A stretch of 64,000 nucleotides of DNA from an uncultured Actinomycetota bacterium (GTDB lineage: Bacteria; Actinomycetota; Actinomycetes; Actinomycetales; Micrococcaceae), in assembly GCA_963810895.1 (NCBI GenBank), contig CAWEPM010000020.1:34785-98784 (forward strand), written 5' to 3'. Position numbers and translations under genes: made by a program. This document shows positions 37,031 to 64,000 of the stretch, in pieces. Positions within the stretch are counted from its first letter, which is position 1. Each line of letters begins with the position of its first letter. The notes under the pieces were generated by a model. The model did no database searches. It was not told where the DNA came from and saw nothing but the letters and a program-made list of their open reading frames with translations.

Positions 37031-37192
37031 CCCGCAACCGGTGACCCGCAAAGTTCCCGGGCCGATGTGCTGGACAGATGTGCTGGACAGATGTACTGGA
37101 CATTGGGCCGAAGGACCCTATGATTCAGGGAAACGCATTGAGCCCGGCATCTTGGCCGGGGAACATCATCGCTGAAATGAACTTCCGTCGCT

Positions 37193-39313: not shown

Positions 39314-39494
39314 CGGGGCTGCGGGTAGCTGGGCCGCGGGTTGTTGGGCTGCTTTCCGACACATTTACAGCGCGGCATGAGGCCCATCACGTCCGGGGAG
39401 CCGGCACCGCATATGATTCAGTCAGCGCAGTGCGCCTTGTTCTCCGCAGGGTGCCCGCTATCCGCATTCGTCGCCTGGGGGGCTGTCAAACATC

Positions 39495-41395
39495 GTGGAA
39501 GCCGGTTTCGCACAACACCTGCTGGAGTACAGCCCGGACGCCCTGCTGCTGGTCGGCCCGGACGGATCAATTTCCTTCCTTAATACGGCCGCGGAACAGC
39601 TCTTCGGCTACCCCCGGGCGCAACTTCTGGGGGCTGACCACAGCCTGCTCCTGGCCGAGGCCTCGCGGGAGGATTTCCACGGCGTCCTGGCCGGGCTCGG
39701 CACGGCCGCAGGCCCCCGCCTTCCGTTCGCCGGCTCGGGCCGCCGGGCCGACGGCACCGAACTCCCGGTCGAAATCACGTGCTCGCTGGTCCCCGCCCCG
39801 GCAGGAGCGGCCGACGCCGGCACCTCCGTGGCCCTCTCGGTCCGCGGCGCCGGCCACCGGAACGGCCACCCGGACGGCCAAAGGAATGCAGACCAGAACG
39901 GTCACCAGCCCCTTCAGCCGCAGGTCCGGCCCGCGGGTGCCGGTCACGACGCCGGAGCCCACCTCGGGCCGGCAGCGCCGGCAGCGCCGGCCGTTCCCTC
40001 AGCGGTGACTTCCACCGCCGTCGTGCTCCCGGTTCTGCGGGAGTTGCCGGTGCGCCGGGTGCCGCTCCCGCGGCGTTCGCCGGGCACGACGACGAGCTCA
40101 AGGCCGGGTCCCTCCGCGACCCCCTGACGGCGTTGCCCAACGGTCCCTTCTTCAATGAACGGCTCGCCGCGGCCCTGCGCCGCCCGGATCCGGTGGACAT
40201 CCTGCTGTTGAATATCGATGACTTCAAGCACCTCAATGGCGTGCTGGGACGCTCGGCGGCCGATGAGCTGCTGGTGGAGGTGGCGAGCAGGCTGCGCAAC
40301 TGCGTCCGCCCGCACGACACCGTGGCCCGGCTGGGCGGCGACGAATTCGCGGTGCTCCTGACCGAATGCCTCAACGCGGACGCGGTGGCCAAGCGGATCG
40401 CCGAGGCCCTCTATGCGCCCCTGCGCGTCGGCGGCTCCATGGTCCGGCCCGGCGTGAGCATGGGCCTGGCGTCGAAGTCGGCGCAGACCCTGGACGGGGC
40501 GGAACTGCTGCGGCAGGCCGACGCCGCCATGACCGCGGCGAAGGCCGCCGGGAAGAACAACTGGCTGCGGTTCCGGCCGGAGATGCTCAACACCGCGGCC
40601 CACAAGGCCGACGGCGAGACCGGGCTCCGGCGCGCCGTCGAGCTGGGCCAGATCTCGGTGCACTACCAGCCCGTGGTGTCCCCGGGCATCGGCTCGGTGG
40701 TGCAGTTCGAGGCGTTCGCCCGGTGGGAGCGGCACGGCCGGCTCGTCCCGCCCAACCAGTTCCTGCCCGTGGCCGAGCAGAGCGGCCTGATCCGCGAGAT
40801 CGGCGACGAAGTCCTGCGCCGCGCCTGCGCCGAGATCCGGCCGTGGCTGGCCGGCGACGCCGCGTACAGCGTCGCCGTGAATGTCTCCGGCCTGCAGTTC
40901 CAGCACCGGGACTTCGCCGCGGACGTGCTCGCGATTGCGGCGTCCACCGGCGTCGACCCGCACCAGCTCACGCTGGAGCTGACGGAAAGCGTGTTCTTCG
41001 ACGCGTCCTCGGACGTGCTGACCCAGCTGCGGCAGCTGCGCGAGGCCGGTGTCCGGATTGCCATGGACGACTTCGGCACCGGGTATTCCACGCTCGGCCG
41101 GCTCCAGGAGCTGCCCCTGGACATGGTCAAGATCGACCGCTCCTTCGTGGCCATGATCAAGACCGGCCAGGAGCAGCTCCCGTTCTTCGCCACCATGATC
41201 AACGCCGCGCATGCCCTCGGCCTGAAGGTCACGGCGGAAGGCATCGAGACCCCGGCGCAGGCCAAGTACCTGATGGAGCGCGGCTGCGACTCCCTGCAGG
41301 GCTACCTGTTCGCCAAGCCCGCCCCGGCCAGCGACCTCGCCGGAACCATGGAGAGCGCCCTGAACGCCCTGGACAAGGTCGACGTCGGGCGGTGA
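39495..41395 (+). CDS. PAS-GGDEF-EAL paralog 3, shorter (second PAS replaced by a low-complexity linker), frame broken between ORFs 39495-40127 and 39779-41395
   Basis: PAS N-terminus in one frame; GGDEF (RLGGDEF) and EAL in another. The EAL motif reads EAFARW instead of EAL. Confidence 0.6.
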
Positions 41396-43485: not shown

Positions 43486-43608
43486 GATGTTCCGGCGGTG
43501 ACCTACTCTCCCACACCCTCCCGGGTGCAGTACCATCGGCGCTGTGGGTCTTAGCTTCCGGGTTCGGAATGGGACCGGGCGTTTCCCCCACGCTATGACC
43601 GCCGTAAC
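43486..43608 (-). rRNA. rrf: 5S ribosomal RNA
   Basis: Reverse complement reads GTTACGGCGGTCATAGCGTGGGGGAAACGCCCGGTCCCATTCCGAACCCGGAAGCTAAGACCCACAGCGCCGATGGTACTGCACCCGGGAGGGTGTGGGAGAGTAGGTCACCGCCGGAACATC. Confidence 0.9.
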
Positions 43609-43837: not shown

Positions 43838-46980
<3,143 letters not shown>

Positions 46981-47499: not shown

Positions 47500-49034
<1,535 letters not shown>

Positions 49035-49261
49035 AAAAACAGACACAACCATGGAACCCCGGGAAAACGGGACACCAGGCTGCACAAAATTTGAAACCAG
49101 CCAAAAACACCAGACCACACCACGGGGTGGCGGATCCGGCACATTCAACCAATCCAATACAATAAATTGGTATCAACAAACTTGGCACACTATTGAGTTC
49201 TCAAACAACAGACACACCCGGCACCACCACAACCACCATTCGGTCGCGGATCGCTCCGGAG

Positions 49262-49300
49262 CAACTTTTCAAACTTACCCGATCTCGGGAGTCTTTGCAA
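49262..49300 (-). promoter_or_regulatory. candidate rrn promoter (TTGCAA-N17-TAAGTT)
   Basis: On the minus strand, ttgcaaagactcccgagatcgggtaagttt sits about 230 nt upstream of the 16S 5' end, an A/T-rich leader in an otherwise GC-rich genome. Confidence 0.3.
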
Positions 49301-49601
49301 ATTCGCATTTCTGCGATTTACATTCTCCAAGAAGGTCCCCACCCTTATTTGGCACGCTAATCTGCGAACCATTTTCAGGCTGTTTAGAAGGGGGTCGGTC
49401 GCTTTCTTTCCGCATCAGCGGCGGCGACTCGAATTACTTTACACGCCGGGAGGACCCGGCACAAATCGGCCCTCCGAGGGGTCCCTTGGCGTCATAATCC
49501 CCGGATCCGCGCGGAATCCGGCCGCCCCAGCCGCCCCCAGGGGCCAGCGGGCCGGCGTCGGACTTCTATGGAGTGGGTCACACCGGTCTTGTCGGGGCCA
49601 A

Positions 49602-50886
49602 CTACCTGTCCTCCAGCAGCGCCTGCACCTCGAGCAGGAACTTCAGGCCGCCGTCGGTCAGTTCCTTCTCCCTGAGAAGGAAGCGCGGGGCGGGGACCGT
49701 GAGCTGGAGGCAGTCCAGGGACTGGCGCACGGTGCGGTCGATGTCCCACGCCCACTGCTCCGGAATCGGGTCGCCGGAGCGGTTGACGAAGCCGGAGGCC
49801 TCGAGCGCACTGAGAATGACCTCGCCGCGCAGGGTGTAGGACGGGGCAAGTCCCTGGACCAGCCAGTGCGCCGCAAGCCTGGTCATGAGCTTCACGGCGT
49901 CGTTCTCCGGGGCTCCGATCGTCCGCACCATGAAGTCCCAGAGTTCGTCGGGTTCGTCCAGGCCGATTTTGCCCATCGGACCGAGCACCATCCTGCCGTT
50001 GCGCTTGCGCAGCAGCTTCCAGTCCAGCAGGTGCAGGCGGAGGTTGAGCACGTCCTTGGCGTTGAGTTCGCGGTTGCCTTTGCCCATGATTTCGTCGTGC
50101 CAGCCGAGCTCATCCAGCGTGCGCCGGACCATCGCCGGCTTCAGGTAGCCATCCTTCGTCAGCTCCAGCCCCTCCCCCGCCGAGTTTTCCAGGAACCACA
50201 TGATGGGTCGGAGTACGGCGTCCCGCTCGGCCGGGGTGACGGGCCGCGGCCACAGCTGCAGGCTGAGCCGCCCAAGCCTCCGGTTGACGGCGTCAAGGTC
50301 GAAGGCGCCGACGTCGAACTCCCCGGCGCGTTCACCGGTGACCTCCGAATACCAGGTGGCGGCGTCGTAAAACTCCGGGTGTTTCTCGTCCGCGAGGACC
50401 TCCGCCAGCCGCCGGTAGCCGCCCGGACCGCCGGAGTCCTCCACGGGACCGCGGTTGGCACCCTCCACACACGTGATGGTCCCCTCCGGGACCATTGCGG
50501 GACCCACCAGCTCGACCTTGTGCGTCCAGGAGTCGCCAAAGTCGTATTCGTACTCAAAGTCAGCGGGTCCGGCCCCCTGAGCGTCGATCAGTTCAAAGAG
50601 GACGACGCCGGAAGCCGGCTCCGCGTCGACGTCCTCGGCCGCTTCGTCGGGGCCAACGATCACGCGCGGCTCGCCGTTGCGGTCGAGGCACCGGATGCCG
50701 TAGAGGTGGCGGTCCTGCCACCCGAAGGCGCACTGGATGGCGTCGTGGAACTGCGGCACGGTGATTGTTTCCGGCAGGAGGAGACGCCGCCAAATCTCGG
50801 GCTCGGTGCCCGCGATGCTGATGCGCAGGTCAAAGGCAGGGACTGTGCTGGGGAGGGCCGGACCCGCTGGGTGCATGCTGGTCATT
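49602..50886 (-). CDS. plasmid pRiA4b ORF-3-like family protein
   Basis: N-terminal region IWRRLLLPETITVPQFHDAIQCAFGWQDRHLYGI matches the PRiA4_ORF3 signature. Start chosen at MTSMHPAG; the ORF's 5' extension overlaps the rrn leader. Confidence 0.6.
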
Positions 50887-51157
50887 GTGCCAGAGCCGCG
50901 GCGGCCCATCCCGGATTCGGGCCCGGATGCAAGGCGACGTCGATATCTTGACTGGGCAAACAACCCCTGTCCCGGCCGCGCCCGAGCGACTAACATGCAG
51001 CAGTACCGGTGTGGTTGCCGCCGGTGTTGCTGTTTACTGCTGGACTTCACGGGAACGCCGTCCGAGCGCCGTTCCCTTTCGTGATGACCGGGCTGGTTGA
51101 GGTCTGGACGGTCGGACCTCGATTAAGCACAGGCGGGTTAAGGCTTGAGGAGGACGT

Positions 51158-52347
51158 GATGTCGAATTTCCTCTTCGCCACGCTCGACGCCGGCGGCAAC
51201 CTTTCCCCGGCCCTGGGCATCGGCCGCGAGCTGCTGCGGCAAGGACACCGGGTCCGCTTCCTCGGGCACGCCCGGCAGGCGGCGGAGGTGGAGGCCGCCG
51301 GCGCCGAATTCGTCCCGTACCGCCATGCGGCCCCGCTGGATCCGGCCGTTGCCGCTCCGGCGCACCGGCAGTTCGCGGCCATGCTGAACGTGTTCAGCGA
51401 CGCCGGCATCGGCCGGGACCTCGTGGAGGAGGCACGGCGCGAGCCGCCCGACGTCGTCGTCGTCGATTGCCTGCTCCTGGGCGCGATCGATGCCGCCGCG
51501 AAGGCCGGGCTGCCGCAGGTGGTCTTGGTGCACAGCTTCTTCGCGTACTTCGACGGCCCGTTCCGGCATGGTCCCATGGGCGCCGCGCTCTCGCTCAAGG
51601 GGCTGCCGCCGCGCCGCGTGATGGGGCGGGCGGAACGGGTTTTGGTCTGCGCGGACCCGTTGCTGGATCCGGCCGGCTCCTGGGACAGCGTCTCCTGGGA
51701 TAGCGACCCGGACAGGGTGGTGTGGTCCGGGGCCGTGGTGGATGACGTCGTCCCGGCTCGAGCTACCGCCGGCTCCGGGCTCCCGGCGCCGGACTCGCCG
51801 GCGACTCGGCGCGGCCGCCGGGCCGCCGCCGCGGGTCCTGGCGAGCCTGAGCACCACGGCGTTTCCCGGGCAGCAGGAGGTGCTGCAGAAGATCCTGGAC
51901 GCGGCGTCCGGATTGCCTGTGGAACTGGTCGTGACCACGGGCGCGGTGGATCCGGCGAGCCTGTCCGCGCCGGCGAACGCCTCGGTGCACCGCTACGTGG
52001 ACCACAACCAGATCATGCCGGGCTGCAGCGCGGTCATCAGCCACGGCGGGCACTCCACCTCCATGCGCGCGCTGGCCCACGGCCTGCCGGTCATGGTCCT
52101 GCCGATGCACCCCATGATGGACCAGCACATGGTCGGCAAGGCCATCAGCAATGCGGGGGCCGGCGTGCTCCTGAACCGCAAGTCGTCGCCGGATCAGATC
52201 GGCGCCGCCCTCACGGCCCTCCTGGCGTCGGAGAGCCAGCGCAAGGCCGCAGCGTACATCGGCGCCCGCCTCCGCAAGGCCGACGGCGCCCGGGCAGGTG
52301 CTCAGGTTCTCGCCGACCTTGCCGGTCTCGCCAGCCTGGCCGGGTGA
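51158..52347 (+). CDS. GT1-family (MGT/UDP-glycosyltransferase-like) glycosyltransferase, frameshifted near 51800
   Basis: N-terminal half MSNFLFATLDAGGNLSPALGIGRELLRQGHRV... and the C-terminal UDPGT-like part (ORF 51742-52347, HGGHSTSMRALAHGLPVMVLP..DQ) lie in different frames. Confidence 0.7.
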
Positions 52348-52452
52348 GCTTGCCGCAGCCTCTGTCCCGGCGTCGGCCGCAGGACTAAGATTCCAGCTGC
52401 ACCGATGGGATTGCCACCGTGCGGAAACCGTTGCGTGGAAGGACATCTGTCA

Positions 52453-52799
52453 TGGAATGCATAACGTGGTTCGCGCCGATCCTGCCCGGGAAACTGGAGG
52501 CGTGGAAAGCACTGGGCGCCGAGATGACCGGGGCTCGCGCCGCAGACCACAAACGCTCGCGCGAGCGCATGGGCATGACGCGGGAGGTCGCCAGCCTCGT
52601 GCAGACGCCGCAAGGGGACTTCGTCTGCCTGTACCACGAGGCCGAGGACCTGACCAAGGCGTTCCAGTCCCTCGCGACCTCGGACGATCCCTATGACGTG
52701 TGGTTCCGCGAGCAACTCGTGGACCTTCACGGCCTGACGCAGGAGATGCTGCAGGGCCCTCCCCCGGCCCAGCTGATGTTCGACTACAAGGCAGGCTGA
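52453..52799 (+). CDS. hypothetical small protein (115 aa)
   Basis: Clean ORF with ATG at 52453. No recognisable motif. Confidence 0.4.
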
Positions 52800-52824
52800 T
52801 CGGCGGCCGGCGCTCTGAGCGCCT

Positions 52825-52990
52825 ATCAGTTCGACAGTACGACGCCGGAGGCCGGCTCCGCGTCAACTGTCATCACCCGCCTCGTCGGGGCCAACGATCA
52901 CGCGCGGCTCGCCGCTGCGGCTGAGGCTCGGCATGCCGTCGAGGCGGAAGTCCTCCCAGGGCCAGCCGATGACCGCCTCAGGAACGTCCA
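52825..52990 (-). pseudogene. truncated fragment of a PRiA4_ORF3-like paralog
   Basis: About 150 nt show roughly 75% identity to 50590-50735 inside the intact gene (shared ...GEPRVIVGPDEA... coding segment). Both the N- and C-terminal parts of the gene are absent. Confidence 0.5.
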
Positions 52991-53040
52991 GCCTCTTACC
53001 CGGTGACCGAAGCGTTGCTACGGTTTTTACGGAGGCTGGC

Positions 53041-53307
53041 ATGACAACAATTCCGCACCGCGAACTTCGCAATCAGAGCAGCAAAATTCTTGAGCGGGTG
53101 AAGAACGGCGAAACCATTGAGGTGACAAACAACGGGGAAGTCGCCGCCGTTCTCATCCCACCGTCCTCTTCCCCGTTCGAGCGGCTGCTTTTGGCAGGAC
53201 AGATCCGGCCGGCCTCTGCGGAGGCCGTTGATTTTCAGTCCCTGCCGCGGGTCAGTTCAGCGACCATGACCGCGGAGATCCTGGCCGATGTTCGCGGGGA
53301 CCGTTGA
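53041..53307 (+). CDS. Phd/YefM-family type II antitoxin
   Basis: 88 aa, MTTIPHRELRNQSSKILERVKNGETIEVTNNGEVAAVLIP, a canonical Phd/YefM N-terminus, with GGAGG RBS upstream. Confidence 0.8.
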   Translation: MTTIPHRELRNQSSKILERVKNGETIEVTNNGEVAAVLIPPSSSPFERLLLAGQIRPASAEAVDFQSLPRVSSATMTAEILADVRGDR

Positions 53308-53384
53308 TCCTCTACGTGGACACGTCGGCGGCCAAGGGGCACCGGGGTTACTCCGCCGGATGTCTGTGGTCGAATGTACTTTAG
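53304..53384 (+). pseudogene. remnant of PIN-domain (VapC-like) toxin gene, 26 codons then stop
   Basis: TTG overlapping the antitoxin stop (cgTTGAtcc) opens LILYVDTSAAKGHRGYSAGCLWSNVL*. LILYVDTSA is the classic VapC N-terminus carrying the first catalytic Asp; the rest of the gene is missing. Confidence 0.45.
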
Positions 53385-53479
53385 GACCAACGGCAAGGCA
53401 CGCTCACCCCTTACCAGAGAACGCTGAACGAAAGCACGCCGCACAAGAGCATCACGCAAGAAATCACCGCAGGGACACG

Positions 53480-54923
53480 ATGGACTACTACGCAATCAAT
53501 GCACTGCGTGAGAACCACGCAGGCTGGTCGCTCCTGCGCGCGCAGAATGCTCCGCTCGCCGTCTCCTTCTTCATCAAGGCCTTCACCGGGCCCAACCAGC
53601 GGGACATCGGCCGCCAGGAACTCATCGACCACCTTGACGACGTCCTGTTCGGGCTCCGGGATGCATATGGTGAGGACAAGTTCCCGCGCCCGGCCGCCGA
53701 ATACCTGGACGACTGGGCCGCGCCCGAGCGGGCCTGGCTCCGCAAATACTACGTGCCCGGCCAGGACGAGCCCCGTTACGATCTCACCGCCGCGTCAGAA
53801 GATGTGGTGCGCTGGGTGGAGAGCCTGCGTGGCCGCGACTTCGTGGCCACCCAGTCACGGCTGACCAGCATCTTCGCCGTACTCAAGGCCCTGGTCCAGC
53901 AGTCCGAAACGGACCCGGAAGTCCGGCTCGCCGAGCTCCAGCGCCAGCGCGACGGGATCGACGCCGAAATGCAGCGGATCCGGGACGGCCACGTCAAGGT
54001 GATGAGCGGCCCCGAAGCCCTGGACCACTTCCAGCAGCTCACCACCCTGGCCAAGGACCTGCTGGCGGACTTCCGCGAAGTCGAACAGAACTTCCGCAAG
54101 CTGGACCGGCAGGTCCGTGAACAGATCGCCACGTGGGACGGCACCCAGGGCGAGCTGCTGGCCTCGATTTTCGCCAACCAGCAGGACATCAGCGGCTCAC
54201 TGCAGGGCCGCACGTTCCAAGGGCTTCTGGGACTACCTCATGTCCCCGCAGCTTCGCACCGAACTGCGGGACCTGCTCCAGCGGGCCACCCAGGTCGAGG
54301 CTCTGGCGAAGCTGGACAACCTCCAGGCCGTGACCAACCTCCACCAGGACTGGCTGCCCGCCGTCGAGCAGACCCAGGCGACGGTGCGCCAGCTGTCGCA
54401 GCAGATGCGCCGCCTCCTCGACGACAAGGTCTTCCTGGAGAACAAGCGGATCATGCAGCTGGTGCGGAGCATCGAAGCCGGCGCCCTCGCAACACGCAAC
54501 GAAACGCCGCCCGGCGTCTTCATGGAGATCGCGGCCCAGTCCGTCGACGTCGCGCTCCCTTTCGAACGTCCCCTGTATGAGCCCAGCCGGCGGACGATGG
54601 TGGACGACGTCGTCACCACCGCCGACGACGCCGAAGTGGACGCCGGCGCCCTCTTCAGCCAATTCCACGTGGACACCGAGCGGCTGAAGTCCAACATCGA
54701 GGACGTCCTCGCCGGAGCCGAACAGGCCACGCTGGGCGACGTCACCGATGCCCACCCGATCTCCCAGGGGCTCGCCGAGATCGTGGCCTACTTCCAGCTG
54801 GCCACCGAATCGGACTGGGCCGCCATCAACCCGGACCAGGCCCAGCACTTGTCCTGGCAGCTCCAGGACGGCAGCACCCGGGAAGCCACAGTCGACCAGA
54901 TCATCTTCGTGAGGCCAGCATGA
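53480..54923 (+). CDS. jetA: Wadjet JetA / MksF-like kleisin-type subunit (DUF3375 family), one frameshift near 54225
   Basis: N-terminus MDYYAINALRENHAGWSLLRAQNAPLAVSFFIKAF... and downstream RLAELQRQRDGIDAEMQRIRDG...FREVEQNFRKLDRQVRE match the DUF3375 pattern. The C-terminal part continues in ORF 54117-54923 after a GGG-run shift. Confidence 0.75.
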
Positions 54924-55007
54924 ACCCCGCCGACCCCCGAAACGCACGCACCGGAAACGCACGCGCCCGAGGAGCTTCCCGGCGTCGTCACCAAGCTGTT
55001 CAAGGGC

Positions 55008-55550
55008 GTGGTCTACGCCGAGTCGGATGAGAAGGCCTGGCAGTCGCTGCTGGGCTTGTCCTCCCACGTCCGCGACTACGTGGCCGTCCTGGGCCTGGAC
55101 CTGATCCTCGACGAGTCCGAAGGCTACGCGTTCCTGAAGTCGCGCGAGGACCCGGACGGCACCCTGCCGCGGCTGATCCCCCGCCGCCCGCTCACCTTCA
55201 ACGTCAGCCTCCTTCTGGCCCTGCTGCGCGGCCGGATGCTCGAATTCGACACGAACAGCAGCGAGCTCCGCCTCATCATGACCGAGCAGGACATCGCGGA
55301 CATGGTCGCCGTCTTCCTGCCCGAGTCCAGCAACGAGGCGAGGATCCTGGATCAGCTCGCCACCGAACATCAAGAAAGTGGTGGAACTCGGCTTCCTCCG
55401 GAAACTGCGCGGCCAGACCGGCACCTACGAGGTCGCCCGCATCCTCAAGGCCTACGTCGATGCCCAATGGCTGGAGGAATTCGACGCGCGGCTGGCAGAT
55501 TACCGGCAGTCCCTCACCGGAGCCGGGCCGACGGAAGCGAGCCACCCATG
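55008..55550 (+). CDS. jetB: Wadjet JetB / MksE-like subunit (DUF4194 family), one frameshift near 55375
   Basis: VVYAESDEKAWQSLLGLSSHVRDYVAVLGLDLILDESEGYAFLK...RLIPRRPLTFNVSLLLALLR and, after the shift, FLRKLRGQTGTYEVARILKAYVDAQWLEEFDARLADYR. Start may instead be the ATG at 54919 overlapping the jetA stop. Confidence 0.7.
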
Positions 55551-58500
55551 ACCACCGAACTCATGAACAGCGGGACTGACAGACCAGCAGGACACGCTTT
55601 TCAGCCTGGATGAAAAAGCGGACGACGCCGGCACTCCCCCGGGCTTTCGGCTGCACCGCCTGGAGCTGCTCAATTGGGGCACCTTCCACCAGGAGGTCCG
55701 GACCTTCCGGCTGGACGGATCCAACAGCCTGCTGACCGGCGACATCGGCTCCGGCAAGTCCACCGTGGTGGATGCCATCACCACGCTGCTGCTGCCGGCC
55801 AACAGGATCGAGTACAACAAGGCCGCGGGCGCGCAGAAGAAGGAACGCACCCTGATGTCCTATGTGCGGGGGTTCCATAAGAGCACCCGCAGCACGGGCG
55901 GTGAGTACTCCAAGCCGGTGGCACTGCGCGGAACGGGCAAACTCACGGTGGTGCTCGGCGTCTTCCACAACGCCGTCCTGGGCAAGTCCGTCACCCTGGC
56001 CATCACCCTGTGGGCCACCCAGGAGGCAGGGCAGCCGAACCGTTTCTATTCGCTCATGGAGGCCGAGCAGTCCATCGCCGCGGACTTCGCCAACTTCGGC
56101 CAGGACCCTGCGAAGCTGAAGAAGCAGCTCCGGGCTGCCGGCGCGTCCGTCCATGACACTTTCGAGCCGTACGCGGCGGCGTTCAAGCGGCAGTTCGGTA
56201 TCAGCGGCAACCAGGCCATGGAGCTCTTCCACCGCACGGTGTCCATGAAGCAGGTGGAGAACATCACCAACTTCGTGCGCACCAACATGCTCGAAGAGGA
56301 CGACGTCCAGGCCCGGATCGGCAACCTCATCCACCACTTCGACGACCTCAAGAAGGCCCACGACGCCGTCCTCCGCGCCAAGGACCAGATCGCCCTGCTG
56401 ACCCCCATCACCCAGAGCGCCGCCCAGCATGCCGGCCTGAGCACCGAGGACGAATTCGCGCGCCGGCAGCGGGACCAGCTGCACCCGTGGTTCACCGGAC
56501 AAAAACTGCAGCTCAGCCTCGAGCACCAGACGGAACTGCACAGCACCGGAACCCGGCTGCAGGAGGACGCCGGCGAAGCTGGCCGCCGAGATCACCCAGC
56601 TGCGCCTCGACCTCGCCGCCGTCAAGGACGATATCCGCAGCAACGGCGGCGGACGTCTGGCATCCATCGAGGCCGAGGCTGCGCGGCTGGGCGAGGAATC
56701 GCGGCAGCAGCGGGCCCGGTTCGAAAAATACGCCGAAGCCGCCGCGGATCTGGGCCTGCAGGCCCCGGCCGACCGGGTCCTCTTCGACGCCAACCGGGCG
56801 CGGCTCGCCGAGGTCGAACAGGACCTCGCCACCCAGGCCGACGGGCTGCAGGACCGCCGCACCGAGCTGACCATGACGCGCACAGCGCTCACCGGCCGCG
56901 CCGACGACATCGCCGCGGAGCTGACCAGCCTGCAGTCCCGCCCCAATCTCCTGCCGCGCCCGCAGCTCGAGCTCCGCCGCCGGTTGTGCGACGGGACCGG
57001 CATCCGGGAGTCGGAGCTGCCGTACGCCGGCGAGCTGCTGCGGGTCCGTGACGGCGAAGGGGCGTGGGAGGGCGCCGCCGAACGCACGCTGCGCGGCTTT
57101 GCCCTGTCGCTGCTGGTGCCGGCGGAACACTATGCCGCCGTGAGCGGCTGGGTGGACGGTAACAACCTGCGCGGCCGGCTGGTGTACCTGAAGATCGGCG
57201 AATCCCACGCGCCAAGGCCGGCGGAGGCCGGGACCCTGGCCGCGAAAATTGCCATCAAGCAGGGCACGCCGTTCCGCGACTTCCTGCTCGATGAACTCGG
57301 CAGCCGCTTCGACTATTTCTGCTGCGACACCCTGGAGGACTTCCGCCGCCGTTCCAAGGCGCTCACCGCCAACGGGCAGCTCAAGGGCGGGCGCGGACGG
57401 CACGAGAAGGACGACCGCCAGGACCTGTCGGACCGCCGCAACTATGTCCTGGGCTGGGACAACCACGACAAAATCAGCCGCTTCCGCGCCGAGCACGACG
57501 ACGTCCAGGGCGAGCTCAGCGTCGTCGCAGGCCAGCTGGCCCGGGTCAACGAATCCCTGGGCGCCATTGGCCGGCAGAACCGGCAGCTGGGCATCATCGG
57601 CTCGGTGCCGGACTTCGCCGAGATCAGCTGGCAGCTCACCGCACGCCGGATCGAGGACCTCAACCAGGAGAAGCGCCAGCTGGAGTCCACCAGCGATGTG
57701 CTGCGGCAACTGACGGCCAAAGAGGCCGAGGTCTCCGGACGGCTGACGCGCCTCGAGACCCGGGCGGACGACATCCAGCGCCGGATCGGGTCCAACGAGA
57801 ACGCCGCCAAGGACATCGCCGAGGCGATCGCGGACTGCCGCGACGTCCTGCAGGCTGCGCCGTTGACGGACGACGCCGGCGTGCTGGCCGCCGTCGCCCG
57901 GCTTGCCGGCGCGGAACTCGCCGGGAAGCCGCTCACCTACAAGAACACCGGAACCGTGGAAAGCGCGGTCCGCTCCGGGCTGACGGACACCATCGACGCC
58001 CTGGCCAAGCAGATCGCCCGCGCGGCCGAGAAGACCGTCCGGCTCATGGCCGAATTCCGCAACAAATACCCGAACGAGACCACGGAGATCGACGCCGCCC
58101 TGGAGTCGGCCGGGGACTTCGGCAAGCTGCTCGAGGAGCTCGTCAGCAACGATCTCCCCCGTTTTGAGGCGCACTTCAAGGAGTCCCTGAACCAGAACAC
58201 CATCCACGAGGTGGTGGCGTTCAACGCGTTCCTGGACAGCCGCAGGCAGGACATCGCGAACCGCATCGGCGAAATCAACCTCTCCCTGGCCGGGATCGAG
58301 TACAACTCCGGCCGGCATATCCAGCTGGAGCACCAGAACAGCACAGACCTGGACGTGCGCCAGTTCGGGATAGACCTGCGGGCCTGTTCGGAGGGGACCA
58401 TCGGGGACGATGACCAGTACTCCGAGCAGAAGTACCTGCAGGTCGCGCGGCTGATCGAACGGTTCCGCGGCCGCGACGGCTTCACCGCCCTCGATGAACG

Positions 58501-58966
58501 CTGGACCGCCAAGGTCACGGACGTGCGCAACTGGTTCACCTTCTCCGCCTCGGAGAAATGGACCGAGACCGGCGAAGAGTTCGAGCACTTCACCGACTCC
58601 GGCGGCAAGTCCGGCGGCCAGAAAGAGAAGCTTGCCTACACCATTCTCGCCGCCGCCCTGGCGTTCCAGTTCGGGCTCGCGTCCGGAAAGGGCGCAGGCC
58701 GGAACGCCGGCAGCGGGCGCAGTTTCCGCTTCGTGGTGATCGACGAGGCGTTCGGCCGCGGCTCCGATGAGTCCGCGCGGTACGGTCTGGAACTGTTCCA
58801 GCGGATGAAGCTCCAGCTGCTGATCGTCACTCCCCTGCAGAAGATCCATGTGATCGAGCCGTTCGTGGCCCACGTGGGCTTCGTGGCCAACACCAACGGC
58901 AATGATTCCCAGCTGCGGAACATGACCATCCAGGAGTACCGGGCGGAGAGGGACCGCCGTGCCTAA
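55548..58966 (+). CDS. jetC: Wadjet JetC / MksB-like SMC-family ATPase (about 1140 aa), two frameshifts (near 55570 and near 56578)
   Basis: ATG overlaps the jetB stop (ccATGAcc). N-terminal FRLHRLELLNWGTFH and Walker A GDIGSGKST, a long coiled-coil middle, and C-terminal Walker B/D-loop FRFVVIDEAFGRGSDES...LQLLIVTPLQK. Confidence 0.8.
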
Positions 58967-60410
58967 GCGGCGTCCCGAGGGCCCCGAACCGAGCTTGCGA
59001 GGTTTGGGAAGGGACCTCCGCGCTGAGCCGTCAGCCGGAAAGGCCCAGGGCTGGACCACGCTGGCAATGCTGCGGGCGCAGTCACTGAAGGCATGGGAGA
59101 GCGGGGAGCTGCTGCGCGAACTCCTGGCACCGGGCGGCCTGAATACCGGCGGCCTGTATCCGCGGCGCCGCACGTTGAAGCGTCCGACGGCGGCCACCCT
59201 CCGGACGGACTATGCAGCAGCCCATGCGTGGGCCAGCGAGCTGTTCGCGGCGGCAGGGCCCTTCAGCCTGGAGACGGCCGACGTGGGCCGCACCACCATC
59301 GGCTCGAACCGGCTTCCCGCTGCGGCGGTGTTCGCGGCCGTCGAGGACGAGATTTCCTTTGTGGGCAAGACCCGTGACGCGGCACGATTCCGGGATCTTG
59401 CCGACGGGCTGGCGGCGCTGGATCCGGCGCTGACCCGGTGGGCGCTGCAAACGTCCGCTGCAGCTGCTGAACCTGGGTGCAGCGGCGCTGACGGCCGGGC
59501 GGGTGGCCCTCTGGCTCCGCGACAATCCAGCGCCGGGCATCTACGTCCGGCAGCTGAGCATGCCCGGGGTCCACACGAAATTCCTGGAGACGAACCGGCG
59601 GGTCATCGATGAGATGGCCAGCTGCGGTGCAGCCCGGCGTGGCTTTGAACGATGTTTCTACCGAGGACGTGCCTCCGGACGGCTTGCCGGAGGCCCAGCG
59701 AAGTGCCGGACCAACCGGCCGAAGTCCTTGGCACCGCGGCGGCCCGGACTCCGGCGGCGCGCTTCGCCGAGCGCCACGGCTTCATCCATCCGCCAGAACT
59801 GGTGCGGCTGCGGTTGCTGGACCCGGAGATCCCGCTGCTTGGCAGCGCGCGGGACATCACCGTCACGGCCGACGCTTTCAGCACGTTGCGGCTGCCGGTC
59901 CACACGGTGATCGTCACCGAAAACCTCGTGAATTTTCTCGCCCTGCCGGACCGGCCCGGCACCGTGGCGCTTTTTGGTGCAGGCTACGGGTTTTCCGCGC
60001 TGCGGGACGCCGCCTGGCTGCGTGAATGTGAAGTCCTGTATTGGGGCGATCTGGACACCCACGGATTCCGGATCCTGGACCAGTTGCGGGCTGCCCATCC
60101 CCACGTGGTGAGTGTGCTGATGGACCAGTCCACGCTGCTGGCCCATCGCGATGCCTGGGGCACCGAAACGGCCCCGGTCCGGGCGGCCCTGACACGGCTG
60201 ACGCCAGAGGAGTCCATGCTGTATACCGCGCTGGCCAACGGAGACTTTGGCCCGGCCGTGCGGCTGGAGCAGGAACTGATCGACTGGGACTGGGCGTGTG
60301 AGCGGCTCCTGCCGGGCGCTTCTGGGCGACGGCGTCTGGGCAGCGCGGCTCAGGGAAGGACGGCTGAGGCAGCCCGATCGGGGCGCCATATGAAGAAGGT
60401 GTCCATTTAG
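58959..60410 (+). CDS. jetD: Wadjet JetD / MksG-like subunit with C-terminal Toprim-like domain, two compensating frameshifts (near 59455 and near 59640)
   Basis: GTG overlaps the jetC stop (GTGCCTAA). C-terminal TVIVTENLVNFLALP (Toprim Glu) and VLYWGDLDTHGFRILDQL (DxD) are present, and the middle segment reads in frame +1 (ALWLRDNPAPGIYVRQLSMPGVHTKFLETN). Confidence 0.75.
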
Positions 60411-60874
60411 CGCGCCGGAATCCCCTCCACGAAGGGCACCTGGGTCGCATATTGCTGATAGAGCTTGACCGCTTCGTCGATCTCAATATGGCCGAAGTTC
60501 AACGCGACCTGCAGCCCCTCCAGCTGGGCGCCGCAGGTCTCGGCCGCGCTCACCCGGTCCGCCAGCGAATGGGACGTGGCAAAATTCGTGGCCAGCGCCG
60601 CGGCAACGGAACAGATCACCGCCAGCAGGCACAGCCCGCGCCACACAATCGAGTCGTCGCTCAGGTTGAAGAGGTCGGCCACCGCGCTGGTGAACCCCGT
60701 GCCCCCGACGGCCGGACCGGCTGTGAACGCCGCGGCCAGCGCGCTGCCCACGATGCTGATGTTGGCCAGCCGGGTGCGTCGGGGGCGCTCCTTGCCGAGA
60801 TAGGAGCGGATGGCCTGCTGTTTCTCGTCGATGCGGGTGGACAGCCTTTGCCGCGTATCGGATGTTTCGTCCAT
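60407..60874 (-). CDS. hypothetical 2-TM membrane protein (155 aa), convergent with and overlapping the jetD stop
   Basis: Charged N-terminus, two hydrophobic helices (ANISIVGSALAAAFTAGPAVGG; LCLLAVICSVAAALATNFA), and an about 60-aa C-terminal helical tail. RBS-like GAGGGAAG sits upstream of the ATG. Confidence 0.45.
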   Translation of the reverse strand: MDETSDTRQRLSTRIDEKQQAIRSYLGKERPRRTRLANISIVGSALAAAFTAGPAVGGTGFTSAVADLFNLSDDSIVWRGLCLLAVICSVAAALATNFATSHSLADRVSAAETCGAQLEGLQVALNFGHIEIDEAVKLYQQYATQVPFVEGIPAR

Positions 60875-61252
60875 GATCTGGTACCAGCTTCCCTCGCCGA
60901 TCGTGTCCGCACGCCTGGAAAGTGGGGCCCGCCTGCCAGCGGCCCGCCGGCTTCCCCGGATTCCTCCAGCCGGGGCGAAAGCTCCCCGCCCCGTTGCCGC
61001 TCTCCTCCCGAAACGCGCACACGTTTAGGATGCTCCCGCGCCGCTGCGGGTGTCTAGACGGACACTCAAGACGGCCGGTGGCGACTCCCGGCCCCGGTCG
61101 CCGGTGGTGACCGCCGACGTCGGCCCTGCACACCGCCGGGGTACCGGCGCCTTCCGCCGGGCGGCACTCCAAAGAACAACATGACGACGGGCACGACCCC
61201 CACCTCCGGCGCTGGAGATGGGGGCCGTGCCCGTGCGGATACTGTCGTGCGG

Positions 61253-61426
61253 TCAGCGCAGGGACCGCAGCGACGCGTACGGTTCGCTGGGGAGGTTTCC
61301 CGCCGTCCAGGGGCGGGTGGACCGCTCGAGCGGGGTGTGGCCGCGGCCGTCGCGGACGACCGCGACGATGGTGGCGACGGCTGCGTAGACCATGAGTCCT
61401 ACGAGCAGGATGGCGGCAAATTCCAT
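61253..61426 (-). CDS. candidate small membrane protein (57 aa)
   Basis: MEFAAILLVGLMVYAAVATIVAVVRDGRGH... with GAGGTG 8 nt upstream of the ATG and a strong GC hairpin right after the stop. Confidence 0.35.
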   Translation of the reverse strand: MEFAAILLVGLMVYAAVATIVAVVRDGRGHTPLERSTRPWTAGNLPSEPYASLRSLR

Positions 61427-61800
61427 TGTGAAAGCACCTCGGGCGATTGATGAAGCTGGTTGTTGGAGTGAGCGATGAAACAGGTTGCCGGGGCCGGATT
61501 CCGGGGTGGTCGGTGCGGTGAGGTTTGCGGTTGTGGTTCGGGTTTCCGGTCCCTTTGTGGGGACATGTCCAGTTTCCGCGGCCACCGTGTGAGCCAGCGT
61601 GTGAGCGGTGAGACCCTCAACGTCAACGGCGGCATGCCGACGCCGTAGCTCAGCTCTGCAGTCACCGCGCCGGCGCCGTTTGCCCCAAGTCGGGCCCTTC
61701 CCTGTACGGCCTTGTGCCGCTGGGGAAGAGCCCGCTTGCGTTGTGCGGCTCTTCGGGCTGGGCTGTTCCGCTGGCGTGGCCACACTGCTACCTTGGCTGG

Positions 61801-61983
61801 ATGGAACGATCTCTGATGAGGCCAAGGAACCGCAAGATCCTCGCGGGAGTCTGCGCAGCTATGGCTCAACGCCTCGGCATCTCCGTGACGCTGGTCCGCC
61901 TCGGCTTCGTATTCTTCGGCTTTTTCGGCGTCGGCGAGCTGGTCTATATCGCGTTGTGGATCCTCATCCCCAAGGCCGAATAA
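61801..61983 (+). CDS. PspC-domain mini-protein (60 aa)
   Basis: MERSLMRPRNRKILAGVCAAMAQRLGISVTLVRLGFVFFGFFGVGELVYIALWILIP matches the PspC domain consensus (R..RD.MIAGVCGGLA.Y.G.D.T.VRL.FV...). Confidence 0.6.
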   Translation: MERSLMRPRNRKILAGVCAAMAQRLGISVTLVRLGFVFFGFFGVGELVYIALWILIPKAE

Positions 61984-62203
61984 CGGCCACTTGTCAGGAC
62001 AGTCCGCCGGGCGGACACCAGCACGACGGCGGGAGTCCGGCAGCGTTGCCGGCCTCCCGCCGTCGTGCAGGACTCGAGCCGTTTCCTCGGGTGGAGTGCG
62101 GATTGGATGCCTCCGGTTTCCGCGGCGGCTTTCTGCAGCCGCCGGGTAAGCAAGCCTGCGAAGCCCCTGCGCCGCCGCCACTCCCCCGGCGTAGCATGAC
62201 TCA

Positions 62204-64000
62204 TATGGCCGACACATGGATTCGGCTCCTCGGTCCGCCCAGGATCGAGTCCGCTGGCACCGCACTCCGGCAGCCCCGGGGCCGCAAGGCCTGGGCTGTG
62301 CTGGCCTACCTCGCGCTGCAACCGGACGGCACCGGCCGGGCCCGGACGGCCGCCCTCCTGTTCCCCGACGCCGAGGACCCCCTCGGCGCCCTGCGCTGGA
62401 ACCTCTCCGAGCTGCGGCGGACCCTCGGCGCGGAATCGGTCGGCGGCGACCCGCTGCGGCTCGTGCTGCCGGCCGGGTGGCACTGCGATGTGCTGGCGGC
62501 CCTGCACCCCGCCGGCGACGCCGACCCCCGCGCCTTCGACGGCCAGCTCCTGGAGGGCCTGTCCTTCGCGGACTGCCCCGTGTTCGAGTCGTGGCTGGAG
62601 GACCAGCGGCACCGGCTCGAGAACTGCGTGCTGGCGCTGCTCTACGAGGCGTCGCTCGGCGCGCTGTCGGCGGGAAGGGCGGACGACGCCGTCGACCTCG
62701 CCACCCGCGCGCTGCGCCTGGACCCCTTCAACGCCGACTGCCACGCCGCGCTGATCAAGGCCCTGCTCTCCCTGGGCGAGTACCGGCGGGCGCGGGAGCA
62801 GGCCGACAAGTGCCGGGACCTCTACCGCCGGGAGCTCGGGCTCGGCCTGCCCGCGGAGGTGCGCCGGGCCCTGGTGGACGCGGACCCCGTGGCCGAGCCC
62901 GGGATGCCGGCCAGTGCGGCCACGGTGCGGTCCTACCTCGACGCCGCCGGGGCGTCGCTCTCGGCGGGCTCGGTGGACCGCGGGCTGGAGCAGCTGCGGC
63001 TCGCCGTCGGGCTCGCCCAACGGACCGATGATCATCATCTGCTCGCCGAATCCCTGGTCACGCTGTCCGGGGCGCATGATCCATCAGGCCGGCGGCCGCG
63101 GTGCCGAGGTGGCCGATCTCCTGCACCGCGCGCTGTCCGCGGAAGGGCCCGACGGCGTCTCCCGGACTGCCGCCACCGCCTTCCGCGAGCTCGGCTATCT
63201 GTCCGTCCAGCGCGGCGTTCCGGACCGCGCGGCCGGCTGGCTGGACCGGGCGATGCGCGCGGCCCAGGGAATCCCGGACGAGCAGGCACGGATCCTGGCG
63301 ATCCAGGGCATGCTGGCCTCGGACACCGCGCACTATGGGGACGCGGTGACGGCCTTCACCGAATCCGGGAGACTGGCCCGGGAGGTCGGGAACCGGCGGC
63401 AACAGGCGTTCAGCGAGGCCCTGCTGGGACGCGTGCATCTGCTGCGCGGGGACCTGGAGCTGGCGGCCGCCTGCCTGGACCGGGCCCGGGACTGGGTCGC
63501 GGGGGAACACTGGACGGCGTTCGAGCCGTTTGTCGCCGGAGTCCGGGGCGAAATCTACCTTGCCGCGGGCCGGCTGGACGCGGCGGCGGACCTGATTGAC
63601 CGGTCCTGGGTCATGGCCGAGCTCGCCGGCGACCACTGCTACATGGCCCTGGCGGCAGGCGCCGAAGCCCGGCTGTTCCTGGCGCACGGCGACCTCGCCG
63701 CCGCCGAACACTGGATCAACCGGGGCCTGGAACCCACGCCGTGGTACCTCTGGTACTCGGCCCGGCTGCTCGATGCCGCGGCGGAAGTCGCCATCGCCAC
63801 CGGATCGCCGCGTGCTGCCGAGTTCGTGGAGCGTCTGGCCGCGCTGGCCAGCCGGAGCGGCATGCGGGAGTTCGTGGTCCGGGCGCAGTCGCATCGGGCG
63901 GTCCTCGGCGACGAGGCCGCCGCCCAGACCGTGCCGTGGCTGGCCAGGGAGATCGACAACCCCGCGCTGACCGCGTTCCTGGACCGGCGCCACGGCGTCT
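62204..64000 (+). CDS. SARP/AfsR-family regulator (OmpR-type wHTH + BTAD + TPR-like), partial at window end, frameshift near 63075
   Basis: N-terminus MADTWIRLLGPPRIE...ALRQPRGRKAWAVLAYLAL (winged helix) is followed by the BTAD region (CHAALIKALLSLGEYRRAREQADKCRDLYRRELGLGLPAEV). A helical repeat region continues to position 64000 in another frame. Confidence 0.7.

What the first reader, a model, noticed from the sequence alone, without database searches (positions are those of the whole stretch)
53480..60410. Four-gene Wadjet-like (JetABCD / MksFEBG) SMC-type anti-plasmid system in an island next to the rrn operon
Four co-oriented, translationally coupled ORFs have the JetA-JetB-JetC-JetD order and size pattern: a DUF3375-like subunit (about 480 aa), a DUF4194-like subunit (about 200 aa), an about 1140-aa SMC-like ATPase and an about 480-aa Toprim-bearing subunit. 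The ATPase carries Walker A GDIGSGKST, a long coiled coil and Walker B VVIDEAF; the Toprim subunit carries the E...DxD residues. Stop/start overlaps (ATGA between jetB and jetC, GTGCCTAA between jetC and jetD) support the coupling. The family is described (Wadjet, Doron et al. 2018; MksBEFG in Corynebacterium), but this copy is worth attention for its context. It sits directly behind an orphan antitoxin and a toxin stub, beside plasmid-associated PRiA4-like genes, and every one of its four genes carries 1-2 apparent frameshifts. Wadjet type (I/II/III) cannot be assigned by eye.
Basis: partly seen in the sequence, partly recalled or inferred. Interest (0 to 1): 0.75.

Follow-up and report, generated by a model that had tools for sequence, protein, structure and literature searches.

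The report
Ordinary type I Wadjet anti-plasmid operon
This is a standard four-gene type I Wadjet (JetABCD) anti-plasmid system of a Pseudarthrobacter/Arthrobacter-like soil bacterium, and the frameshifts that made it look like a decaying copy are most likely single-base assembly errors that occur all over the window.

Summary
The four co-oriented genes are there, at 53480-60410 on the + strand. After single extra bases are removed they give full-length, very strong matches to JetA, JetB, JetC and JetD of type I Wadjet (Pfam, PADLOC, and PDB JetC/JetD/MksG). So the family assignment is right, and the type is now I.

The claimed special feature, frameshifts in every gene, is real in the sequence: I count nine +1 and one -1, not six. 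It is not specific to Wadjet. The same kind of single-base insertion breaks icd (twice), an enoyl-CoA hydratase, a DHDPS-like gene, an SDR, an aldehyde dehydrogenase, a flotillin, a glycosyltransferase and a SARP regulator elsewhere in the window.

Sister contigs 98% identical to the window, from long-read-style metagenome assemblies, break different genes at different places. One has jetB and jetC intact. Another has icd intact but purH split.

Window-versus-sister substitutions in jetC are 30 synonymous to 5 non-synonymous, so the gene is under purifying selection. The frameshifts are therefore most likely consensus errors. Two of them (jetA 54219, jetD 59449) are shared with one sister contig and remain uncertain.

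The operon, with a Phd-VapC pair upstream and often a PRiA4 gene within 5 kb, is common in this genus. Low interest; already known.

The parts
53480..54923 (+). jetA (kleisin-like subunit, DUF3375), 480 aa after removing one extra base at about 54219
   Evidence: Pfam DUF3375 7.9e-137 covering profile 2-474/474. PADLOC JetA1 3e-199 covering 1-479/480. The extra A (CC[A]AGG) is absent from 7 relatives and from L082 but present in sister contig L083.
54920..55551 (+). jetB (KITE subunit, DUF4194/MksE), 209 aa after removing extra bases at about 54936 and 55363
   Evidence: Pfam DUF4194 1.7e-41 and MksE 1.3e-17. PADLOC JetB1 1.4e-91. The extra base at 55363 is private to the window; L083 encodes an intact 208-aa JetB.
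55548..58966 (+). jetC (SMC-like ATPase), 1138 aa after removing extra bases at 55575 and 56575. Walker A at 55738-55764, signature SGGQ at 58610-58633, Walker B at 58733-58753.
   Evidence: PADLOC JetC1 E=0, 1411.7 bits, profile 11-1120/1123. Pfam AAA_29 1.1e-22 and SbcC_Walker_B 1.2e-20. PDB JetC 8dk2 5.9e-53 and 8as8 2.8e-51, both end to end. Both extra bases are private to the window; L083 encodes an intact 1138-aa JetC. No in-frame start codon lies between the first frameshift and the P-loop.
58959..60410 (+). jetD (CAP + Toprim nuclease). Extra bases at 59449, 59618, 59699 and 60328; missing base at 60339. The true stop is probably near 60340. Toprim E lies in 59913-59936 and DxD in 60042-60065.
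   Evidence: Pfam DUF3322 6.2e-39 and JetD_C 4e-52. PADLOC JetD1 4.4e-131. PDB MksG 8b7f 2.1e-21, JetD 7til and 8q72, with the ENL and GDLD motifs aligned. The 59449 insertion is shared with L083; the others are private to the window.
53041..53307 (+). phd/yefM-type antitoxin gene, intact (88 aa)
   Evidence: Pfam PhdYeFM_antitox 3.6e-10. A homologue lies near jetA in 24 related loci; in the seven best-matching loci where position can be read it is just upstream of jetA.
53304..53384 (+). vapC (PIN toxin) remnant. Only the first 10 or so codons (LILYVDTSAA) are homologous; unrelated sequence follows, with a stop.
   Evidence: Relatives L001, L004, L007 and L041 have an intact PIN ORF of about 130 aa (VIIYLDTSAVLKLVVEE...) between phd and jetA. 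The alignment shows homology ending after about 30 nt in both the window and L083.
49602..51050 (-). PRiA4_ORF3-family gene between the 16S rRNA gene and the locus
   Evidence: Pfam PRiA4_ORF3 2.4e-39. Homologues lie within about 5 kb upstream of jetA in 13 related loci.
51159..52347 (+). Glycosyltransferase (EryCIII-like/UDPGT) with a +1 frame change near 51804
   Evidence: The C-terminal domains sit in a different frame from the N-terminus. The gene is intact at 387 aa in L082 and split in L083.
52452..52799 (+). DUF6176 gene (115 aa), intact
   Evidence: Pfam DUF6176 1.1e-06. The protein is identical in L082 and L083.
60407..60874 (-). Convergent 155-aa ORF with no Pfam match, downstream of jetD
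   Evidence: No Pfam hit. 97% identical in L082 and L083 and 85% identical in L008, where it lies next to PRiA4.

Best explanation
The locus is a chromosomal type I Wadjet operon (jetA-jetB-jetC-jetD, also called mksF-E-B-G or eptA-D) of a Pseudarthrobacter/Arthrobacter-like actinobacterium.

Mechanism, taken from characterised type I systems and not tested here:
- JetA (kleisin), JetB (KITE) and JetC (SMC ATPase) form a dimer-of-dimers motor.
- The motor loads on DNA and extrudes loops using ATP.
- On small circular DNA (below about 50-100 kb) the motor units are thought to stall once the whole circle has been extruded.
- That state activates the otherwise autoinhibited Toprim nuclease JetD, which cuts the plasmid.
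- Chromosomes and linear DNA are spared.

In the organism the operon is most likely intact and working. The nine extra bases and one missing base that break all four reading frames are most likely consensus errors of an insertion-prone (long-read, metagenome-style) assembly. Two of them (jetA 54219, jetD 59449) are less certain because a sister contig shares them.
For: Identity:
- Full-length HMM matches to all four type I subunits.
- End-to-end matches to solved JetC, and matches to solved JetD/MksG centred on the Toprim domain, with catalytic motifs conserved.
- 135 related loci in Arthrobacter-group genomes, and 6236 JetC homologues with E<=1e-50, the best at 92-93% aa identity.

Mechanism:
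- Literature on type I systems: PMC10586767, PMC10123090, and the abstracts of 10.1101/2022.10.04.510915 and PMC10889018.

Frameshifts as artefacts:
1. Seven relatives are in frame at every site tested in jetA-C.
2. The same single-base insertions split unrelated genes across the window. Pfam profiles are cut between frames: IDH 1-171 | 188-733, ECH_1 2-63 | 85-250, adh_short 1-85 | 92-192, Aldedh 9-206 | 204-461. About 17 of 18 frame changes are +1.
3. Seven sister contigs, all but one (L082, 89.5%) 97.7-98.7% identical, each break a different set of the same genes. All those analysed show private 1-nt insertions far outnumbering deletions.
4. The pattern is reciprocal: icd is intact (742 aa) in L090, where purH and an MFS gene are split; the window has icd split and those two intact.
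5. L083 has jetB and jetC intact.
6. Window-versus-L083 substitutions in jetC fall 4/2/30 on codon positions 1/2/3, with 30 synonymous and 5 non-synonymous codons. Downstream of the two shared frameshifts, 19 of 29 substitutions are at third positions in the corrected frame.
7. After correction, 6.9 kb contains no internal stop codon, and translational coupling is preserved.
Against: - Indel density in the operon (8-10 in 6.9 kb) is 2-5 times that of the rest of the coding sequence (10 in 37.6 kb; binomial p about 0.0003-0.003). However, I searched the operon more deeply, and 22.9-26 kb has a comparable cluster (4 in 3 kb).
- Two frameshifts (54219, 59449) are shared by the window and L083, which differ by about 1.5% mostly synonymous substitutions. 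Those two are either inherited real mutations or context-specific systematic errors.
- Most inserted bases are not homopolymer extensions, so the error mode is not the classic homopolymer one.
- I could not identify the window's own record or its reads.
- No activity was tested.
Confidence: 0.8

Rival explanations
1. The whole operon is a genuine pseudogene cluster. This lineage has lost Wadjet immunity and the genes are decaying by accumulated frameshifts.
For: All four genes are interrupted. The first jetC frameshift lies upstream of the P-loop with no alternative start codon. Indel density is higher than in the rest of the window. The neighbouring vapC is truly deleted and the glycosyltransferase is split in both the window and L083.
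Against: Six or seven of the indels are private to the window, while a 98.2%-identical sister has jetB and jetC intact. jetC substitutions are 30 synonymous to 5 non-synonymous. There are no nonsense codons after correction, and HMM coverage is full length. Identical-looking insertions break icd and other metabolic genes, and every sister contig has its own set. Natural decay in bacteria is biased towards deletions, whereas here nearly all events are 1-nt insertions (the deletion bias is from my own knowledge; the count is).
Confidence: 0.07
2. A mixed case. Only the two frameshifts shared with sister contig L083 (jetA 54219, jetD 59449) are real, so this sub-lineage carries a recently disabled Wadjet. 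All other indels are assembly errors.
For: The same extra base at the same position is found in two contigs that differ by 171 substitutions over 11.5 kb. It is absent from L082 and from 7 relatives.
Against: Downstream of both sites, substitutions between the window and L083 still favour third codon positions in the corrected frame (19 of 29; p=0.016 against a GC-weighted neutral expectation). jetC remains under strong purifying selection. Shared indels also occur between other sister contigs in an unrelated gene (flotillin 32384, shared with L085), which fits context-specific systematic error.
Confidence: 0.12
3. The ATPase is a chromosome-organising MksBEF/MukBEF condensin or an SbcC/RecN repair ATPase rather than a defence system.
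For: There are weak Pfam hits to MukB N-terminal (2.8e-4) and AAA_23. Sources name the homologues only 'ATP-binding protein' or 'SbcCD C subunit-like'.
Against: A JetD (DUF3322 + Toprim JetD_C) gene is translationally coupled downstream, and DUF3375/DUF4194 partners lie upstream. The PADLOC JetC1 score is 1412 bits. The best PDB matches are JetC, not MukB, Rad50 or SbcC. No SbcD-type nuclease gene lies within or directly flanking the four-gene operon.
Confidence: 0.01

Closest known systems
Type I Wadjet JetABCD of Pseudomonas aeruginosa PA14 and Escherichia coli GF4-3 (PDB 8dk2/8dk3, 8as8, 7til, 8q72)
   Same: Same four subunits in the same order and the same Pfam families. JetC aligns end to end (E 5.9e-53 and 2.8e-51). 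The JetD Toprim acidic motifs are conserved.
   Different: Distant in sequence (phmmer bit scores of only about 180 for 1138 aa). The host is an actinobacterium. JetD here carries a longer linker between the CAP and Toprim domains: about 460-480 aa against a 391-position PADLOC profile.
MksBEFG of Corynebacterium glutamicum (MksG structure 8b7f) and EptABCD of Mycobacterium smegmatis
   Same: Actinobacterial type I Wadjet. MksG is the best solved match for JetD (2.1e-21), matching both the CAP-like and Toprim parts. Plasmid copy-number control and restriction have been shown experimentally for those systems (PMC10123090; PMC10586767).
   Different: A different family within the Actinomycetota. 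Polar DivIVA-dependent localisation is known only for Corynebacterium and cannot be assessed here.
Orthologous operons in Pseudarthrobacter/Arthrobacter genomes (for example Pseudarthrobacter sp. MDT3-26 L001, Arthrobacter sp. SPG23 L002, Pseudarthrobacter sp. S9 L008)
   Same: jetA-C are 86-91% identical at nucleotide level and JetC is 92-93% identical at protein level. There is a Phd antitoxin upstream, often with a PRiA4 gene nearby. L008 and L002 also sit next to a 16S rRNA gene.
   Different: The relatives are in frame and keep an intact vapC. In L008 the operon lies on the other side of the SARP regulator gene. jetD is only 71-77% identical.

Membership tests
Wadjet type I (JetABCD / MksFEBG) | Four co-oriented adjacent genes in the order jetA-jetB-jetC-jetD | tested here: met
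   53480-60410 on the + strand, with 4-nt or 8-nt start/stop overlaps at all three junctions.
Wadjet type I (JetABCD / MksFEBG) | JetA with DUF3375 (kleisin-like) | tested here: met
   Pfam PF11855 7.9e-137, full profile; PADLOC JetA1 3e-199. Met only after removing one base.
Wadjet type I (JetABCD / MksFEBG) | JetB with DUF4194 / MksE (KITE) | tested here: met
   PF13835 1.7e-41, PF21980 1.3e-17; PADLOC JetB1 1.4e-91. Met only after removing two bases.
Wadjet type I (JetABCD / MksFEBG) | JetC: SMC-like ATPase with N-terminal Walker A, a long central region and C-terminal signature and Walker B motifs | tested here: met
   AAA_29 at residues 35-95 and SbcC_Walker_B at 988-1084. GDIGSGKST, SGGQ and VVIDEAF are present. 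PADLOC JetC1 1411.7 bits. PDB JetC matches end to end. The coiled coil is inferred from the alignment to solved JetC and was not predicted separately.
Wadjet type I (JetABCD / MksFEBG) | JetD with DUF3322 (CAP-like) plus a Toprim domain (JetD_C/DUF2220) carrying the conserved E and DxD | tested here: met
   PF11795 6.2e-39, PF09983 4e-52; PADLOC JetD1 4.4e-131. The ENL and GDLD motifs align to MksG 8b7f and JetD 7til.
Wadjet type I (JetABCD / MksFEBG) | Uninterrupted reading frames in the sequence as given | tested here: not met
   Nine +1 and one -1 single-base indels. They are judged to be assembly artefacts, but that cannot be proven without reads.
Wadjet type I (JetABCD / MksFEBG) | Restriction of small circular plasmids in vivo, or cleavage of circular DNA in vitro | not testable with these tools
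   Known for homologues only (PMC10586767, PMC10123090).
Wadjet type II / III | Best matches to the JetA2/B2/C2/D2 or type III subunit models | tested here: not met
   The only non-type-I Wadjet hit is JetC2 at 3.3e-07, against JetC1 at E=0. There are no JetA2/3, JetB2/3 or JetD2/3 hits.
MukBEF / MksBEF condensin without nuclease | Three-gene operon lacking a Toprim JetD/MksG partner | tested here: not met
   jetD is present and overlaps the jetC stop codon.
Type II toxin-antitoxin Phd/YefM-VapC (neighbour) | Antitoxin gene followed by an intact PIN toxin gene | tested here: not met
   The antitoxin is intact. The toxin is reduced to about 10 homologous codons, whereas relatives keep about 130 aa.

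The most novel reading that the evidence does not exclude
The two frameshifts shared by the window and an independent sister contig (jetA 54219, jetD 59449) are real and fixed in a natural soil sub-lineage. That lineage would then carry a Wadjet whose kleisin and nuclease genes are knocked out while jetB and jetC stay under purifying selection. This would be either a very recent natural loss of plasmid immunity or a nuclease-independent role for JetBC.
Probability: 0.1. Interest if true: 0.35.

Novelty: already known. Interest (0 to 1): 0.1.

Why it matters
It matters mainly as a caution. The feature that raised the interest score, frameshifts in every gene of a defence operon, reflects the quality of the sequence and not the biology of the organism. 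The same insertion-type frame breaks will make any gene in this window, and in its sister contigs, look like a pseudogene.

The biology is routine. Type I Wadjet is widespread, and close orthologues (92-93% identical JetC) are already present in many sequenced Arthrobacter and Pseudarthrobacter genomes. A practical consequence is that strains of this group probably resist transformation with small circular plasmids, which is relevant to anyone trying to engineer them.

Tried and rejected
- tblastn of relatives' JetD against the window did not resolve the frame changes: it returned one gapped HSP in a single frame. I placed them by reading three-frame translations and by nucleotide alignment to L083 instead.
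- Exact-protein look-ups failed for the antitoxin, the 155-aa ORF, purH and the MFS transporter. Look-ups with the SDR, DUF6176, the ferredoxin and a 143-aa ORF succeeded.
- I did not find the window's own record. The nearest contigs are 97.7-98.7% identical, not identical.
- I compared the 16S rRNA gene with L008 to look for stray insertions in a non-coding gene. Identity was 97.9%, with only paired indels in variable regions, which is uninformative at the expected rate.
- I first thought every frameshift was a homopolymer extension. The alignments show that most are insertions of a base unlike its neighbours.
- I first thought all frame changes were +1. One in the third PAS-GGDEF-EAL gene (39968) and one at 60339 are -1.
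- I considered recombination as the reason jetD is much more diverged than jetA-C. I rejected it as a special feature because jetD is the faster-evolving gene in every pairwise comparison among relatives.
- I did not run structure prediction, because the sequence evidence for family membership is already saturating.
Full report
**What is in the sequence**

The window is G+C-rich (about 0.69). It carries an rRNA operon on the minus strand: 5S at 43490-43606, 23S at 43842-46969 and 16S at 47506-49032.

Downstream of the rRNA operon, on the plus strand, no single long ORF covers 53480-60410. The mechanical ORF list shows pieces of 430, 268, 201, 428, 697, 217 and 252 aa in alternating frames.

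Three-frame translation shows that these pieces join into four proteins if the frame is advanced by one base at several points. After single bases are removed the products are 480, 209, 1138 and about 460-482 aa with no internal stop codon.

All three gene junctions overlap:
- ATGA at 54920-54923 (jetA/jetB)
- ATGA at 55548-55551 (jetB/jetC)
- GTGCCTAA at 58959-58966 (jetC/jetD)

**What it is**

| Corrected protein | Pfam | PADLOC best model |
|---|---|---|
| JetA | DUF3375, 7.9e-137, whole profile | JetA1, 3e-199 |
| JetB | DUF4194 1.7e-41; MksE 1.3e-17 | JetB1, 1.4e-91 |
| JetC | AAA_29 at the N-terminus; SbcC_Walker_B at the C-terminus | JetC1, E=0, 1411.7 bits, profile 11-1120 of 1123 |
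| JetD | DUF3322; JetD_C 4e-52 | JetD1, 4.4e-131 |

- The best PADLOC models are type I for every subunit. The only non-type-I Wadjet hit is JetC2 at 3.3e-07.
- Against solved structures, JetC aligns end to end with JetC of P. aeruginosa (8dk2, 5.9e-53) and E. coli GF4-3 (8as8, 2.8e-51).
- JetD matches C. glutamicum MksG (8b7f, 2.1e-21) and JetD 7til/8q72. The Toprim ENL and GDLD motifs are aligned.

This is a type I Wadjet operon. The rival readings (SbcC/RecN, or a nuclease-less MksBEF condensin) fail because the DUF3375, DUF4194 and Toprim partners are all present and translationally coupled.

**How it most likely works**

This is inferred from characterised homologues and was not tested here.
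[quoted passage not shown] JetD is a Toprim nuclease that is autoinhibited until JetABC acts on target DNA.
- The complex cleaves circular DNA below roughly 50-100 kb and spares linear and larger molecules (PMC10586767; abstracts of 10.1101/2022.10.04.510915 and PMC10889018).
- In the actinobacterium C. glutamicum, deleting mksB, mksF or mksG raises the copy number of a low-copy plasmid, and MksG is a cation-dependent nuclease (PMC10123090).

**The frameshifts**

I compared the locus with seven relatives whose jetA-C are 86-91% identical (Pseudarthrobacter and Arthrobacter genomes found).
- The window alone has one extra base at about 54219, 55365 and 56575.
- It has a 13-nt (12+1) excess at 54933 and a 5-nt deficit at 55571.
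- All the relatives stay in frame.

A much closer sequence, L083 (ENA ERZ25039478:contig_40484), is 98.2% identical over window 49583-61128 and has the same gene order. It pins the events to single bases:
- **Private to the window:** extra bases at 55363, 55575, 56575, 59618, 59699 and 60328, and a net +4 at the jetB start.
- **Missing in the window:** a base at 60339. This destroys the jetD stop codon that L083 and L082 have.
- **Shared by the window and L083:** two extra bases, at 54219 and 59449.

L083 encodes an intact 208-aa JetB and an intact 1138-aa JetC. The count is therefore nine +1 and one -1, not six.

**The frameshifts are not specific to Wadjet**

A codon-position G+C tracker, translations and sister-contig alignments found the same kind of frame change elsewhere in the window:

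| Gene | Approximate position |
|---|---|
| icd, monomeric isocitrate dehydrogenase (two events) | 7489 and 7549 |
| enoyl-CoA hydratase | 22918 |
| DHDPS-family gene | 23971 |
| SDR | 24710 |
| aldehyde dehydrogenase | 25966 |
| flotillin | 32384 |
| third PAS-GGDEF-EAL gene (this one is -1) | 39968 |
| glycosyltransferase | 51804 |
| SARP regulator | 63076 |

Pfam confirms the splits, because one profile is divided between two frames:
- IDH 1-171 and 188-733
- ECH_1 2-63 and 85-250
- adh_short 1-85 and 92-192
- Aldedh 9-206 and 204-461

About 17 of 18 frame changes are +1 (sign test 1.4e-4).

**Sister contigs**

Exact-protein look-ups recovered seven further contigs from one series of ENA metagenome assemblies (accessions ERZ25039478 to ERZ25039554). 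Their names are of the form 'contig_N'. All but one are 97.7-98.7% identical to the window; the exception, L082, is 89.5% identical.
- Each contig breaks or fuses a different subset of the same genes.
- The window's extra bases at 22918, 23971, 24710, 25966 and 32384 are absent from three or four of the sister contigs.
- In a five-way alignment, every contig has private 1-nt insertions far outnumbering deletions: 8:1, 9:1, 6:1 and 13:3 in the sisters, and 3:1 in the window.
- The pattern is reciprocal. L090 has icd intact at 742 aa but purH and an MFS transporter split. The window has icd split and those two genes intact.
- L082 carries the same Wadjet shattered into at least ten called genes. 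It differs from the window by 213 gap positions in 10 kb.

This is the behaviour of consensus errors, not of inherited mutations.

**Selection**

Substitutions between the window and L083, read in the corrected frame:
- **jetC:** 4, 2 and 30 substitutions on codon positions 1, 2 and 3, giving 30 synonymous and 5 non-synonymous codons. The probability of 30 of 36 at third positions under a GC-weighted neutral expectation is 1.4e-6.
- **Downstream of the two shared frameshifts:** 19 of 29 substitutions are at third positions (jetA C-terminal part 1/0/5, jetD C-terminal part 8/1/14). This gives p=0.016 against the GC-weighted expectation and 4e-4 against one third.

The genes have therefore been evolving as coding sequence in the corrected frames.

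**What remains open**
- Indel density in the operon is 2-5 times that of the other coding sequence (binomial p 0.0003-0.003). However, I examined the operon far more closely than the rest, and 22.9-26 kb holds four events in 3 kb.
- The two indels shared with L083 could be real. I give about 0.1-0.15 to a genuinely disabled jetA and jetD in this sub-lineage, and about 0.07 to decay of the whole operon.
- Most inserted bases are not homopolymer extensions. I could not identify the sequencing platform or the window's own record.

**Context**
- A Phd/YefM antitoxin (53041-53307) is followed by about 10 codons of a vapC PIN toxin and then unrelated sequence. Relatives L001, L004, L007 and L041 keep an intact PIN ORF of about 130 aa between phd and jetA.
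- A Phd homologue lies near jetA in 24 related loci. In the seven best-matching loci where its position can be read it is just upstream of jetA. A PRiA4_ORF3 gene lies within about 5 kb in 13 related loci.
- In Pseudarthrobacter sp. S9 (L008) the same 16S-PRiA4 flank is present, but the operon lies beyond the SARP regulator gene rather than before it. L002 also abuts the 16S upstream region.
- The region next to this rrn operon is therefore variable in order. The operon with its phd neighbour, and often PRiA4, is nonetheless a recurrent chromosomal unit of the genus and not a fresh island. G+C content does not set it apart.

**Verdict**

The indel count, the stated end coordinate and the number of PRiA4 genes need correcting.

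This is an ordinary, already known kind of system with close orthologues in public genomes. Interest is low.

Noticed in passing
window 7489, 7549, 22918, 23971, 24710, 25966, 32384, 39968, 51804, 63076: Single-base frame breaks, nearly all +1 insertions and mostly not homopolymer extensions, split icd, an enoyl-CoA hydratase, a DHDPS-like gene, an SDR, an aldehyde dehydrogenase, a flotillin, a PAS-GGDEF-EAL gene, a glycosyltransferase and a SARP regulator. Any pseudogene call in this window is suspect.
   Followed up: yes
L081-L088, L090 (ENA ERZ25039478, ERZ25039502, ERZ25039524, ERZ25039545, ERZ25039554): A series of metagenome assemblies holds contigs 97.7-98.7% identical to the window. 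Each has its own insertion-dominated frameshifts. The window's own record was not found among them.
   Followed up: partly
window 58959-60410 versus L001-L006, L063, L002: jetD is consistently much more diverged than jetA-C between the same genome pairs (for example L001 versus L005: 95% in jetC but 80% in jetD; window versus relatives: 88% versus 71-77%). The nuclease subunit is the fast-evolving part of the operon in this genus.
   Followed up: partly
window 53304-53479; L001 7390-7942: vapC is replaced after about 30 nt by about 140 nt of unrelated sequence in the window and in L083. Relatives keep an intact phd-vapC pair directly upstream of jetA.
   Followed up: yes
window 49033-64000 versus L008 1-14710: In Pseudarthrobacter sp. 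S9 the order is 16S, PRiA4, 155-aa ORF, SARP, Wadjet. In the window it is 16S, PRiA4, GT, DUF6176, phd, Wadjet, 155-aa ORF, SARP. The Wadjet block sits at a different point of the same rrn-adjacent region.
   Followed up: partly
window 34751-41395; L081: There are three tandem PAS-GGDEF-EAL paralogues. Sister contig_633 lacks the segment 37234-39173, which fits loss of one copy by recombination between paralogues.
   Followed up: no
L063 (Arthrobacter sp. Hiyo4, AP014718), positions aligned to window 53686, 56403, 58950: This complete genome has its own single-base gaps inside jetA and jetC relative to all other relatives. Its Wadjet also reads as frameshifted.
   Followed up: no
window 60846-62264: This stretch has weak coding signal, and sister contig L083 stops matching the window at 61128. 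L083 continues into RibD_C and DUF2252 genes instead of the SARP gene. It is a possible rearrangement breakpoint.
   Followed up: no
window 60407-60874 (-): A 155-aa ORF with no Pfam match is conserved in L082/L083 (97%), L008 (85%, next to PRiA4) and L012.
   Followed up: no
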